In this document: piece after piece, positions 8,995 to 37,326 of the stretch
How positions within the stretch are numbered: the first letter of the stretch is position 1
How the letters are laid out: each line of letters begins with the position of its first letter
Virus record (IMG/VR): IMGVR_UViG_2563366870_000004
Location: 1-42,584 of that record
Reading direction: 5' to 3' (one strand)
Source: a virus
Taxonomy: Duplodnaviria > Heunggongvirae > Uroviricota > Caudoviricetes
Length of the DNA: 42,584 nt
The notes under the pieces: model-generated
Told to the model about the DNA's origin: nothing
The model's database searches: none
Seen by the model: only the letters and a program-made list of their open reading frames with translations
Position numbers and translations under genes: made by a program

Positions 8995-9107
8995 TTTACA
9001 TCGCACTCCTCTTGTGCCATAGTAATCGAGCACTGGCAAAATCCAGTGCCGGGATTTGCACCCCGGATTACTAAAAGGCGCATACCACGCCAGACGTGGT
9101 TTTTTTA
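8995..9107 (+). ncRNA. Candidate small structured RNA / leader element upstream of the anti-repressor gene
   Basis: Three successive hairpins (CACTGG..CCAGTG, CCGGG..CCCGG, CCACG..CGTGG) ending in a T-run; overlaps a low-plausibility ORF 8905-9243. Confidence 0.3.
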
Positions 9108-9255
9108 TGCGTATAGCACAGTCATGCCAGAATTATGGTGGGACGTGCAGGGGCACCGAAAGGTGCGCCGGGTCCTTTTAGCCGGTAGTGCAAACCCTGT
9201 ACGTCTCACCACCAACGAGATTTGCACCTCAGGTGGTGATTAACCATACTAAAAG

Positions 9256-9951
9256 GTGATTGCCATGACTGCTAACGTAACCCCATCTGTTTTTCATTTT
9301 GAATCAGAAGCAACCATTCGAGCCATTGTTATTGATGGAAATCCTTGGTTTGTTGCCAAAGACGTTATTAAAGCTCTTCAACTGACAAACCCCACCATGT
9401 CAATCAAATCTCTTGATGATGATGAAAGGGCTAAATTTAACTTAGGTCGTCAAGGCGAAACCAATATTATCAGCGAGTCAGGCCTCTACACACTGATCCT
9501 CCGCTGCCGCGATGCGGTGACACCAGGCACTATCCCCTACCGCTTTCGTAAATGGGTTACAGGTGAGGTTCTTCCTCAGATCCGCCGCACCGGAAGTTAC
9601 ATTAAAAACTCGCTCCCGCAGGAAGAACGCATAAAGATGGTTGCCGACCAGGTAGCCAACGCCACAGCATCAGCAGTGATGCAGGCGATGAAGATAGAGA
9701 ACAAAACCTACAGTGCCCCGCTGAAGCCCGGCTACCGCAGCCTGATTCACTCGCCGTCTGGTGTTCTCGGCCTGACGGAGAACTCACTGCTGATGAATCT
9801 GCTGAACCAGTTACAGGAAGACGGGCACGACGTATCGGGCGCGGCGGCGGAGCTGACCACCATGTTCTGCTACATCGTCGGTGTGAGCAAATGCCTGCGT
9901 GATATCCAGACGCACGCGGAGTATATCAACGACAAAGCAGGGTTCTTCTGA
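9256..9951 (+). CDS. Anti-repressor with Bro-N-type N-terminal domain
   Basis: Bro-N-like motifs IRAIVIDGNPWFVAKDV, SESGLYTLI, FRKWVTGEVLPQIRRTGSY; C-terminal domain shared with 7842-8114. Confidence 0.7.
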   Translation: MIAMTANVTPSVFHFESEATIRAIVIDGNPWFVAKDVIKALQLTNPTMSIKSLDDDERAKFNLGRQGETNIISESGLYTLILRCRDAVTPGTIPYRFRKWVTGEVLPQIRRTGSYIKNSLPQEERIKMVADQVANATASAVMQAMKIENKTYSAPLKPGYRSLIHSPSGVLGLTENSLLMNLLNQLQEDGHDVSGAAAELTTMFCYIVGVSKCLRDIQTHAEYINDKAGFF

Positions 9952-10015: not shown

Positions 10016-10032
10016 ATTACCTTAAAGGTAAA
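10016..10032. promoter_or_regulatory. Operator-like palindrome ATTACCT-TAA-AGGTAAA (1 mismatch)
   Basis: Located 25 bp upstream of the ATG at 10058; GAGGAGGAG ribosome-binding site follows. Confidence 0.55.
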
Positions 10033-27726: not shown

Positions 27727-27743
27727 ATTACCTTTCAGGTAAC
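27727..27743. promoter_or_regulatory. Operator-like palindrome ATTACCT-TTC-AGGTAAC (1 mismatch)
   Basis: Intergenic, between the portal-upstream region and the tRNA; TTGACA hexamer 15 bp upstream. Confidence 0.55.
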
Positions 27744-28064: not shown

Positions 28065-28141
28065 GTGGCATTAGCTCAGCTGGACAGAGCAACCGCCTTC
28101 TAAGCGGTTGGTCGCAGGTTCGAATCCTGCATGCCACGCCA
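28065..28141 (+). tRNA. tRNA-Arg (anticodon UCU), phage-encoded
   Basis: Cloverleaf by hand: acceptor GTGGCAT/ATGCCAC, D-stem GCTC/GAGC, anticodon stem ACCGC/GCGGT with loop CTTCTAA, T-arm GCAGG-TTCGAAT-CCTGC, discriminator G, CCA. Confidence 0.85.
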
Positions 28142-30922: not shown

Positions 30923-30996
30923 AACCACCGTGGTAATAGTTACCGTTGTGGTAATAGTACCATGCAAAATAAAGCCGCCATAGTTGGCGGCAGTAT

Positions 30997-34226: not shown

Positions 34227-34238
34227 GATTTACCCCTG

Positions 34239-34261
34239 AGGTAATTAAAAACCACATAAGA
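34239..34261. promoter_or_regulatory. Conserved box AGGTAATTAAAAACCACATAAGA
   Basis: Third copy of the AAAACCACATA-type box, 55 bp from the palindrome at 34291. Confidence 0.4.
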
Positions 34262-34290: not shown

Positions 34291-34307
34291 ATTACCTAGC
34301 AGGTAAT
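34291..34307. promoter_or_regulatory. Operator-like palindrome ATTACCT-AGC-AGGTAAT (perfect)
   Basis: Perfect 7-3-7 palindrome between the P-like gene and the nuclease-like gene; TAGAAT hexamer just upstream. Confidence 0.6.
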
Positions 34308-36597: not shown

Positions 36598-36614
36598 TTT
36601 ACCTGTTGGGTAAT
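36598..36614. promoter_or_regulatory. Operator-like site TTTACCT-GTT-GGGTAAT in the cro/repressor intergenic region
   Basis: 2 mismatches to consensus; additional half-sites AGGTAAC (36560-36566) and GTTACCT (36581-36587) nearby. Confidence 0.5.
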
Positions 36615-36668: not shown

Positions 36669-37253
36669 ATGAAAAGTATCCAGGACGTCCGCAGGCAAAA
36701 TCTCAACGACTTGATCGACCGTGAATTCAATGGTGTTCAGACGCGGATGGCAGAAAAACTTGGAACTCAGGCAAATCTGGTAAACCGCTGGGCTCTTGGC
36801 AAGAAGGTTATCGGCGACCAGGTTGCGCGAAAAATTGAAGCTGCCGCCAATAAACCCCGTAACTGGCTTGATATCGATCGCTCGCTTTCTCAAGAAGGTT
36901 TTCAGCCTGTCGGACCAAGCGACATTGGTCAGCTGGCGGCTCACAACCTGGAACGTTGGATGAGCGAAAGCCGAGACCTTTCAACGCAGGGAAAACTTCA
37001 CCGCGCATCCGGTGTCGCCCAAGTGACAATCAGCCGCCTGTTAAACAATGAGGTCAGCGTTTCCATTTCCACCCTGGAGAATGTTGCATCCGCATTCGGG
37101 CGTCACGGCTATGAATTACTGATTCACCCGCACGACCCTGCGACTATCAACTATGATCGCTCGCGCTACGCATTGTTACCTGAAACAGAGAAGGCAAAGA
37201 TCGAAAGTTACATTGAATTTGTCATCAACCAGAACGAAAAAAGCAAACAATAA
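36669..37253 (+). CDS. Prophage repressor candidate, dual HTH (XRE-type) domains, no S24 peptidase domain evident
   Basis: 194 aa; HTH-like segments QTRMAEKLGTQANLVNRW and LHRASGVAQVTISRLLNNE; flanked on both sides by the palindromic sites. Confidence 0.6.
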   Translation: MKSIQDVRRQNLNDLIDREFNGVQTRMAEKLGTQANLVNRWALGKKVIGDQVARKIEAAANKPRNWLDIDRSLSQEGFQPVGPSDIGQLAAHNLERWMSESRDLSTQGKLHRASGVAQVTISRLLNNEVSVSISTLENVASAFGRHGYELLIHPHDPATINYDRSRYALLPETEKAKIESYIEFVINQNEKSKQ

Positions 37254-37309: not shown

Positions 37310-37326
37310 ATTACCTTACGGGTAAT
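37310..37326. promoter_or_regulatory. Operator-like palindrome ATTACCT-TAC-GGGTAAT (1 mismatch)
   Basis: Upstream of the rightward early operon. Confidence 0.55.

What the first reader, a model, noticed from the sequence alone, without database searches (positions are those of the whole stretch)
8995..9107. Structured RNA-like element with terminator in the anti-repressor leader
Three consecutive perfect hairpins ending in a T-run lie between the operator sites and the anti-repressor start. Small antisense or processed RNAs control anti-repressor expression in P22 (sar) and P1 (c4); this element could play the analogous role.
Basis: inference. Interest (0 to 1): 0.5.

Follow-up and report, generated by a model that had tools for sequence, protein, structure and literature searches.

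The report
IsrK-type leader RNA of c4–ant module
The three hairpins are a real small RNA of a known family (IsrK / c4-a1b1 / P4 seqA); it is not the antisense repressor but carries copies of that repressor's target sites, and the true c4-type antisense RNA lies just downstream, so this is an ordinary, unannotated member of a well-studied phage immunity circuit.

Summary
Window 9030-9106 (+) folds into three hairpins ending in a U-run and scores 67.4 bits against Rfam isrK (cut-off 50).

The IsrK-like RNA carries UUUGCAC in the loop of hairpin 2 and CUAAAAGG in the linker. Both recur in the same sense at the ant ribosome-binding region and are complementary to two exposed segments of C4. It therefore carries P1-style a1/b1 copies of the target and cannot pair with the ant RBS.

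Across 106 unique related loci the three a sites and three b sites change together. Close relatives of this prophage differ almost only at these six sites.

Rfam models link the element to the Gifsy-1 IsrK locus, the P1 c4 leader and P4 seqA, and this equivalence is already published.

The likely function, inferred from those homologues, is a terminated leader RNA that attenuates read-through and competes for C4. The circuit is known; this copy is uncharacterised and unannotated. Interest is low.

The parts
8886..8900 (.). Operator-like palindrome TTACCTTAAAGGTAA, lying between the divergent 242-aa gene and the ant operon
   Evidence: Pattern TTACC-N5-GGTAA gives 11 perfect copies plus 3 with one mismatch in the window, against 0.81 expected. 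It is conserved in close relatives. Binding by a repressor is inferred.
8950..8979 (+). Distal promoter-like site (TTGATT, 18 nt, TATCAT), placed like P1 P2c4/P51a
   Evidence: Consensus scan only; the comparison of position with the P1 annotation is inference.
8979..8993 (.). Operator-like palindrome TTACCTTTGCGGTAA; it overlaps the start region of the distal promoter and abuts the -35 of the proximal promoter
   Evidence: The arrangement resembles operator Oc4 with P2c4 and P1c4 of P1.
8995..9023 (+). Proximal promoter of the IsrK-like RNA: -35 TTTACA 8995-9000, 17-nt spacer, TG, -10 CATAGT 9018-9023; predicted transcription start near 9030
   Evidence: A -10-like hexamer (at least 4 of 6 matches) sits at the same distance from hairpin 1 in 94 of 114 related loci. 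Gifsy-1 (TATATT, 6 nt, then the first base of the isrK match) and P1 P1c4 (TATAGT) have the same geometry.
9030..9106 (+). IsrK-type / c4-a1b1-type leader RNA, 77 nt: hairpin 1 9030-9049, hairpin 2 9050-9065, linker 9066-9083, intrinsic terminator 9084-9106
   Evidence: Rfam isrK 67.4 bits (gathering 50), full length. Rfam c4-a1b1 36 bits, E = 1.5e-7, over 9017-9069. Covariation in hairpin 1. Terminator scan.
9055..9061 (+). a1 site UUUGCAC in the 8-nt loop of hairpin 2; identical to a2 and complementary to a' of C4
   Evidence: The a1/a'/a2 sites covary in 106 loci with 23 loop classes. Site names follow the P1 GenBank annotation.
9071..9078 (+). b1 site CUAAAAGG in the single-stranded linker; identical to b2 and complementary to b' of C4
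9131..9216 (+). C4-type antisense RNA (the homologue of P1 c4, Gifsy-1 STnc1160/'orf45' and P4 CI)
   Evidence: Rfam C4 77.8 bits (gathering 45). The C4 fold is retained in the minimum-energy structure of the read-through transcript.
9174..9181 (+). b' CCUUUUAG in the loop of C4 hairpin 2
9188..9194 (+). a' GUGCAAA in the unpaired segment 3' of C4 hairpin 2
9221..9227 (+). a2 target site UUUGCAC in the ant 5' untranslated region
   Evidence: With its flanks, 10 nt are identical to a1.
9249..9256 (+). b2 target site CUAAAAGG, overlapping the ant Shine-Dalgarno sequence (AAGGUGA 9253-9259)
9265..9951 (+). ant: a 228-aa protein with a Bro-N domain (putative anti-repressor)
   Evidence: Pfam Bro-N, E = 1.5e-19. 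RefSeq CDS at this position in an identical E. coli locus.

Best explanation
Window 9030-9106 (+) is the 5' leader RNA of a P1 immI-type anti-repressor operon in an epsilon15/phiV10-like E. coli prophage. It belongs to the RNA class called IsrK (Gifsy-1), c4-a1b1 (P1/P7) or seqA (P4).

Shown here:
- It has three hairpins and an intrinsic terminator.
- It exposes two short motifs: a1 in the loop of hairpin 2 and b1 in the linker.
- These motifs are exact same-sense copies of the two sites a2 and b2 at the ant ribosome-binding region.
- They are complementary to the two exposed segments a' and b' of the C4 antisense RNA encoded about 25 nt downstream.

Inferred from the homologues:
- Transcription starts near 9030, and most transcripts stop at the terminator to give a roughly 77-nt RNA.
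- Read-through yields the C4 precursor and the ant mRNA.
- Processed C4 pairs with a2 and b2 and blocks ant translation, which maintains lysogeny.
- The leader acts as an attenuator and as a specificity-matched competitor (target mimic) for C4. It could act in cis on the nascent transcript, and in trans as a short RNA that titrates C4 and so lets Ant be made when promoter activity rises, as reported for IsrK in Gifsy-1.
For: Family and neighbours:
- Rfam isrK 67.4 bits, and C4 77.8 bits immediately downstream. Rfam c4-a1b1, E = 1.5e-7, overlaps hairpins 1 and 2.
- Reference systems: the Gifsy-1 locus scores isrK 79.3, c4-a1b1 48.1 and C4 69 bits. The P4 seqA region scores isrK 60.8 bits and P4 CI scores C4 74.9 bits. 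The P1 leader scores c4-a1b1 51.0 and isrK 35.1 bits.

Sites:
- In 106 unique loci (23 a classes, 81 a/b combinations), a1 has a 7-nt or longer perfect complement downstream in 104 loci, against 42 of 530 mismatched controls. A same-sense repeat of 8 nt or more occurs in 101 loci, against 3 of 530 controls. The b sites behave likewise.
- Close relatives with near-identical backbones differ almost only at the six sites, and the changes are concerted.

Structure and promoter:
- Hairpin 1 shows covariation.
- The promoter is conserved at a fixed distance.

Gifsy-1 experiments:
- The base pairs validated by compensatory mutation, G28:C162 and G31:C159 (PMC4825925), map exactly onto a1:a' when the Gifsy-1 sequence is numbered.
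- IsrK supplied in trans raised anrP translation more than 100-fold.
- IsrK and STnc1160 are highly transcribed in lysogens (PMC7067206).

Published equivalence and annotation:
- PMC10111431 states that the Rfam C4 and isrK profiles detect relatives of P4 CI and seqA.
- The P1 GenBank record annotates a1, b1, c4, a2 and b2 in the same order.
Against: - No expression data exist for this locus. The transcription start, terminator efficiency, C4 processing and any trans activity are all inferred from homologues.
- The minimum-energy fold of the read-through transcript keeps the IsrK and C4 domains separate. The cis 'structure A' described for Gifsy-1 is therefore not predicted here.
- The orf45-anrP translational coupling of Gifsy-1 cannot apply as described. 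The ORF that starts at the homologous AUG (9135) stops after 17 codons inside C4, and the length of this ORF is not conserved across loci.
- In P4, pairing of CI with seqA promotes termination rather than de-repression, so the sign of the leader's effect may differ between systems.
- The c4-a1b1 model scores below its gathering cut-off (36 against 46.7).
Confidence: 0.75

Rival explanations
1. The a1/b1 leader works in cis only. It pairs with C4 sequences within the same nascent transcript to control termination, folding or processing of the C4 precursor (as in P4 seqA/CI immunity and Gifsy-1 'structure A'). The short terminated RNA is then a by-product with no trans function.
For: P4 CI acts with seqA to cause early termination (PMC10111431). 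Gifsy-1 structure A is an intramolecular IsrK:orf45 helix supported by compensatory mutations. The P4 seqA region matches the isrK model.
Against: In Gifsy-1, short IsrK supplied in trans activates anrP translation 114- to 171-fold. The minimum-energy fold of the read-through RNA in this window does not pair the two domains. A strong intrinsic terminator follows the a1/b1 sites in nearly all of the retrieved loci, which favours release of a discrete RNA.
Confidence: 0.18
2. One reading: the element is itself the antisense or processed repressor RNA (the analogue of c4 or sar) that pairs with the ant ribosome-binding region.
For: It is a structured, terminated RNA in the ant leader.
Against: Its exposed motifs have the same sense as the ant RBS sites, not the complementary sense. 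Its duplex with the ant initiation region is no better than shuffles (103 of 300). A separate C4 homologue with the complementary motifs lies downstream. No sar match reached Rfam's threshold.
Confidence: 0.02
3. It is a plain transcriptional attenuator or terminator in the ant leader. The hairpins have no RNA-RNA recognition role, and the repeated motifs are incidental.
For: A canonical intrinsic terminator lies at 9084-9106. Hairpin 2 was fixed by the search pattern, so its conservation among the retrieved loci is not independent evidence.
Against: The loop and linker motifs covary with two sites in C4 and two sites at the RBS across 23 loop classes and 81 combinations, far above mismatched controls. 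Close relatives differ specifically at these sites.
Confidence: 0.05

Closest known systems
IsrK sRNA of Salmonella prophage Gifsy-1 (Rfam RF01394; Hershko-Shalev et al. 2016, PMC4825925)
   Same: The three-hairpin, roughly 77-nt architecture with a GCAAAAUC loop and an intrinsic terminator is the same. Each has its own promoter 7 nt upstream. A C4-type RNA (STnc1160/'orf45') and then an anti-repressor gene follow directly. The loop of hairpin 2 is complementary to the unpaired segment of C4. The a2 and b2 copies lie at the anti-repressor RBS.
   Different: The recognition sequences differ (UUUGCAC/CUAAAAGG here, UUGGCGU/UCACCG in Gifsy-1). No orf45-like ORF reaches ant: the ORF is 17 codons here against 45 codons overlapping the anrP start in Gifsy-1. 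The host phage is an epsilon15/phiV10-like podovirus prophage of E. coli rather than a lambdoid one, and no Q-like antQ gene lies upstream.
a1/b1 leader of the c4-icd-ant (immI) operon of phages P1 and P7 (Rfam c4-a1b1, RF03163)
   Same: The order of parts is the same: operator, two promoters, a1, b1, terminator-like hairpin, c4, a2, b2, regulated gene. The a1 site lies in the loop of hairpin 2, the b1 site in the linker, and b2 overlaps the Shine-Dalgarno sequence.
   Different: Here C4 targets the ant RBS directly; in P1 the target is the RBS of icd, which is translationally coupled to ant1. The window scores below the c4-a1b1 gathering cut-off (36 against 46.7), while the P1 leader scores below the isrK cut-off (35 against 50), so they are diverged branches of one class. 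The operator is a palindrome, not a P1 C1-type asymmetric site.
seqA of satellite phage P4 (CI RNA immunity: seqA, seqB/CI, seqC)
   Same: The Rfam isrK model matches the P4 seqA region (60.8 bits) and the C4 model matches P4 CI (74.9 bits). The three-site logic is the same, with a copy upstream, the antisense RNA in the middle and a copy downstream. The equivalence is stated in PMC10111431.
   Different: In P4 the outcome is premature termination of transcription of the replication operon. The CI RNA lies about 100 nt further from the leader. The gene context also differs (eta/kil and alpha rather than a stand-alone ant gene).
sar antisense RNA of phage P22 immI
   Same: Both are small RNAs that control an anti-repressor gene placed among late genes near the tailspike or tail-fibre gene of a podovirus.
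   Different: sar is transcribed from the opposite strand across the ant RBS (my own knowledge). The element here is co-oriented with ant, has its own terminator and shows no complementarity to the RBS. No sar match reached Rfam's threshold.

Membership tests
isrK (Rfam RF01394) | Covariance-model score at or above the family's gathering cut-off, over the full length | tested here: met
   67.4 bits against 50, model positions 1-77 of 77, window 9030-9106 +
isrK (Rfam RF01394) | Three hairpins, the last an intrinsic terminator, with pairs supported by covariation | tested here: met
   Folds. Six of the 7 pairs of hairpin 1 show changes on both sides in 25 sequences. Terminator scan. Hairpin 2 could not be tested because the search pattern fixed it.
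isrK (Rfam RF01394) | Genomic context: own promoter, followed by a C4/STnc1160-type RNA and an anti-repressor gene | tested here: met
   C4 at 9131-9216. Bro-N gene at 9265-9951. Promoter. Gifsy-1 has the same layout.
isrK (Rfam RF01394) | A discrete, stable roughly 77-nt transcript; Hfq binding; trans-activation of anti-repressor translation | not testable with these tools
   This needs RNA-seq or Northern analysis, Hfq co-immunoprecipitation and reporter fusions.
c4-a1b1 (Rfam RF03163), the P1/P7 immI leader | Covariance-model score at or above the gathering cut-off | tested here: not met
   36.0 bits against 46.7 (E = 1.5e-7), window 9017-9069. The Gifsy-1 leader passes (48.1) and the P1 leader passes (51.0).
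c4-a1b1 (Rfam RF03163), the P1/P7 immI leader | Carries a1 and b1: same-sense copies of the a2/b2 target sites, complementary to a'/b' of the adjacent C4 RNA | tested here: met
   a1 9055-9061 equals a2 9221-9227 and is the complement of a' 9188-9194. b1 9071-9078 equals b2 9249-9256 and is the complement of b' 9174-9181. Family-wide covariation.
c4-a1b1 (Rfam RF03163), the P1/P7 immI leader | Promoter region controlled by the prophage repressor (Oc4/Op51 in P1) | tested here: inconclusive
   Over-represented palindromes flank the promoters and also flank an HTH gene at 36669-37253. Binding was not tested.
P4 seqA | Homology to the P4 seqA region, paired with a CI-type RNA | tested here: met
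   The same isrK model matches the P4 seqA region at 60.8 bits, and the C4 model matches P4 CI at 74.9 bits. P4-like loci were retrieved by the same DNA pattern and show the same three-site covariation.
P4 seqA | CI-dependent premature termination of transcription | not testable with these tools
   This needs transcription assays.
   The motifs have the same sense as the RBS sites. The duplex of IsrK with the ant initiation region is no better than shuffles (103 of 300). The C4 model matches the neighbouring 9131-9216, not this element.
P22 sar (Rfam sar family) | Transcribed antisense across the ant RBS; match to the sar model | tested here: not met
   No sar match reached gathering score, and none had an E-value up to 10 in 8850-9320. 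The element is co-oriented with ant.

The most novel reading that the evidence does not exclude
The short terminated leader could act as a specificity-coded 'anti-antisense' sponge. It is made from the same promoter as C4 and ant but in excess, and it would titrate C4 through a1/b1. Ant synthesis would then respond as a threshold to promoter activity. The two independently swappable recognition sites (23 a classes and 81 a/b combinations in 106 loci) would form a combinatorial hetero-immunity code shared by podovirus, lambdoid, P1-like, APSE and P4-like elements. On this reading the Gifsy-1 'orf45' results would be reinterpreted as IsrK:C4 (a1:a') titration rather than as control of a small ORF.
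Probability: 0.4. Interest if true: 0.35.

Novelty: new member of a known kind. Interest (0 to 1): 0.2.

Why it matters
The finding mainly matters for annotation. RefSeq leaves both RNAs unannotated in identical E. coli loci, and 490 of 5,426 complete E. coli genomes carry related sequence.

It also shows that Rfam isrK and c4-a1b1 describe one homologous element. The a1/a'/a2 and b1/b'/b2 motifs can be read directly from sequence to predict which prophages and satellites would cross-regulate each other's anti-repressors. No new principle is involved.

Tried and rejected
1. Outer stem. The minimum-energy fold of 8995-9107 adds an outer stem, UAGUAAUC (9020-9027) with GAUUACUA (9066-9073). I rejected it as part of the main RNA because 8995-9023 is the conserved promoter and transcription should start near 9030. 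Relatives show no clear compensatory changes there. It could exist only in transcripts from the distal promoter-like site and remains unresolved.

2. A small protein. ORFs overlap the element (9056-9181 with a TTG start; 8979-9083 on the minus strand). The orf45-like ORF from the conserved AUGG of C4 (9135) is 17 codons here, and its length varies widely across loci. I did not pursue these as coding.

3. Minus-strand RNA. The minus strand also folds well (z = -4.0). However, the Rfam matches, the U-run terminator, the G-U pairs in hairpin 1 and the gene orientation all indicate the + strand.

4. Failed or misdirected steps. The first collection pattern had too few specified bases. Locus L107 was tried as a stand-in for Gifsy-1 but did not fit the published numbering. 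The Gifsy-1 record itself did fit.

5. Site labels. I first labelled the loop site b1 and the linker site a1, and corrected this to the P1 GenBank nomenclature after reading the P1 record.

6. Duplex energies. The RNAduplex energies ignore intramolecular structure and served only as a rough control.

Full report
**Observation.** The interval 8995-9107 contains three consecutive hairpins ending in a run of T.
- Hairpin 1 is GCACUGG/CCAGUGC (9030-9049).
- Hairpin 2 is CGGG/CCCG (9050-9065) with the 8-nt loop AUUUGCAC.
- Hairpin 3 is ACCACG/CGUGGU (9084-9100), followed by T's through 9106.
- As RNA the interval folds at -41.7 kcal/mol (z = -4.7; none of 200 shuffles folds as well).
- The terminator scan finds the third hairpin on the + strand.

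**Identity.** A scan of the whole window against Rfam at curated thresholds gives three matches:
- isrK (RF01394) at 9030-9106 +, 67.4 bits (cut-off 50), over the full model.
- C4 antisense RNA (RF01695) at 9131-9216 +, 77.8 bits (cut-off 45).
- A tRNA at 28065-28138.

A permissive scan adds c4-a1b1 (RF03163, 'a1, b1 targets of C4 antisense RNA') over 9017-9069 at 36 bits, E = 1.5e-7, below its cut-off of 46.7. The finding is therefore an IsrK-family RNA.

The downstream gene starts at ATG 9265 and ends at 9951. It encodes a Bro-N domain protein (RefSeq CDS in an identical locus).

The window is an epsilon15/phiV10-like podovirus prophage next to yfgI in E. coli. Its closest phage is TL-2011b. 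RefSeq annotates neither RNA.

**Boundaries.**
- In 114 related loci a -10-like hexamer (at least 4 of 6 matches; mostly TATAGT or CATAGT) sits at exactly this distance from hairpin 1 in 94 loci. A -35 with at least 4 of 6 matches is present in 79.
- In Gifsy-1, TATATT lies 6 nt before the first base of the isrK match, and numbering from that base reproduces the published positions. In P1, TATAGT of promoter P1c4 (P51b) lies 6 nt before the homologous hairpin.
- The RNA therefore most likely starts near 9030.
- Two copies of the palindrome TTACC-N5-GGTAA lie at 8886-8900 and 8979-8993. The pattern has 11 perfect copies in the window, against 0.81 matches (one mismatch allowed) expected by chance.
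- A distal promoter-like site (8950-8979) lies just before the second palindrome. This resembles the P1 arrangement of operator Oc4, P2c4 and P1c4.

**Anatomy of the module.** Site names follow the P1 GenBank annotation; coordinates are.

| Site | Sequence | Coordinates | Location |
|---|---|---|---|
| a1 | UUUGCAC | 9055-9061 | loop of leader hairpin 2 |
| b1 | CUAAAAGG | 9071-9078 | single-stranded linker of the leader |
| b' | CCUUUUAG | 9174-9181 | loop of C4 hairpin 2 |
| a' | GUGCAAA | 9188-9194 | unpaired segment 3' of C4 hairpin 2 |
| a2 | UUUGCAC | 9221-9227 | ant 5' untranslated region |
| b2 | CUAAAAGG | 9249-9256 | overlaps the ant Shine-Dalgarno sequence (AAGGUGA) |

The primed sites are complementary to a1 and a2, or to b1 and b2. 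They are unpaired in the predicted fold. With flanking bases, 10 nt are identical between a1 and a2 and between b1 and b2.

The leader thus carries same-sense copies of the C4 targets and cannot pair with the ant RBS. Its best duplex with the ant initiation region is matched or beaten by 103 of 300 shuffles. C4 against that region is matched by 19 of 300, and C4 against the leader by 12 of 300.

**Comparative test.** They gave 106 unique usable loci.
- The loop of hairpin 2 falls into 23 sequence classes, and there are 81 distinct a/b combinations.
- The loop has a perfect complement of at least 7 nt downstream in 104 of 106 loci. Leaders taken from loci of another class reach this in 42 of 530 trials.
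- A same-sense repeat of at least 8 nt follows in 101 of 106 loci, against 3 of 530 controls.
- The linker has a complement of at least 6 nt just 5' of a' in 77 of 106 loci (57 of 530 controls). It has a same-sense repeat of at least 6 nt after a2 in 94 of 106 loci (81 of 530 controls).
- Close relatives that share this window's operator, promoter, hairpin 1 and terminator differ almost only at the six sites, and always in concert. L008 and L039 change only a; L025 and L029 change both a and b.
- In 25 diverse sequences, 6 of the 7 pairs of hairpin 1 show changes on both sides, and the G-U pairs fit only a + strand RNA.
- The stem of hairpin 2 was fixed by the search pattern, so its conservation is not independent evidence.

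**Link to characterised systems.**
- Gifsy-1: the locus between antQ and anrP scores isrK 79.3, c4-a1b1 48.1 and C4 69 bits. When the Gifsy-1 RNA is numbered from its start, the pairs validated by compensatory mutation (G28:C162 and G31:C159; PMC4825925) fall exactly in a1 (U26-U32, UUGGCGU) and a' (A158-A164, ACGCCAA). The orf45 AUG at position 107 is the conserved AUGG at the foot of the C4 stem. Copies a2 and b2 lie at the anrP RBS.
- The Gifsy-1 paper reports that short IsrK in trans raises anrP translation 114- to 171-fold. It calls IsrK a structural homologue of P4 seqA, and it describes a processed RNA, STnc1160, downstream. IsrK and STnc1160 are abundant in lysogens (PMC7067206).
- P4: the isrK model matches the seqA region (60.8 bits) and the C4 model matches CI (74.9 bits).
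- P1: the leader scores c4-a1b1 51.0 and isrK 35.1 bits.
- PMC10111431 states that the Rfam C4 and isrK profiles detect CI and seqA relatives. APSE phage records annotate both RNAs upstream of a Bro-N gene.

The equivalence is therefore already in the literature.

**Mechanism.** The architecture, the site relationships and their covariation are shown here. The following steps are inferred from P1, P4 and Gifsy-1.
1. Transcripts from about 9030 mostly end at the terminator and give a roughly 77-nt RNA.
2. Read-through supplies the C4 precursor and the ant mRNA.
3. Mature C4 pairs with a2 and b2 and occludes the ant RBS.
4. The leader attenuates read-through and competes for a' and b', in cis and probably in trans, so the ratio of leader to C4 sets Ant output.

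Differences from Gifsy-1:
- The ORF from the homologous AUG (9135) ends after 17 codons inside C4. The length of this ORF varies widely between loci, so orf45-type coupling is not a general feature and cannot operate here as described.
- The minimum-energy fold of the read-through RNA keeps the leader and C4 domains separate.

In P4 the analogous pairing promotes termination, so the direction of the leader's effect remains the main uncertainty.

**Verdict.** The element is an uncharacterised and unannotated member of a known, experimentally studied RNA class. Its recognition sequences differ from those of the studied members. Interest is low (0.2).

Noticed in passing
window 5872-5886, 8886-8900, 8979-8993, 10017-10031, 27728-27742, 30940-30954, 34230-34244, 34292-34306, 36599-36613, 37311-37325, 37373-37387 (plus one-mismatch copies at 3429, 30922 and 36551): The palindrome TTACC-N5-GGTAA occurs 11 times perfectly, against 0.81 matches (one mismatch allowed) expected by chance, and the copies are scattered across the prophage. 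Pairs of copies flank a 194-aa HTH_3 gene (36669-37253), the likely repressor. This suggests a dispersed operator regulon like that of P1 C1, in an epsilon15-like prophage.
   Followed up: partly
window 7842-8114 (+): A 90-aa ORF just upstream of the divergent gene is 42% identical (E = 7e-17) to residues 143-220 of the Bro-N Ant protein. It looks like a free-standing paralogue of the Ant C-terminal domain.
   Followed up: partly
window 9135-9188 (+): The conserved AUGG at the foot of the C4 stem, which is the start codon of 'orf45' in Gifsy-1, opens only a 17-codon ORF here. The ORF length at this position ranges from 20 codons or fewer to more than 60 across related loci, which argues that the conservation of the region is at the RNA level.
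   Followed up: yes
Rfam families RF01394 (isrK) and RF03163 (c4-a1b1); loci L123 34240-34329, L125 3218-3312, L124 8615-8692: The two Rfam families overlap on the same two hairpins and cross-match each other's reference loci (Gifsy-1, P1, P4). Even so, isrK is listed without a clan, while c4-a1b1 shares clan CL00128 with C4.
   Followed up: yes
window 6574-7794 (+) and 6037-6555 (+): A 406-aa ORF whose translation reads like an IS transposase, and a 172-aa ORF, lie where the closely related E. coli EC21Z-144 locus has only tail-fibre and adjacent genes. This is probably an insertion specific to this window's strain.
   Followed up: no
window 8137-8865 (-): The gene divergent from the ant operon encodes a 242-aa protein with an N-terminal hydrophobic segment, a Cys-rich C-terminus and only a sub-threshold Stc1 match. 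Its function is unknown. It shares the operator-bearing intergenic region with the IsrK promoter.
   Followed up: no
window 28065-28138 (+): A tRNA gene lies inside the prophage (Rfam tRNA, 71.7 bits). RefSeq annotates a tRNA-Arg at the corresponding place in the related locus.
   Followed up: no
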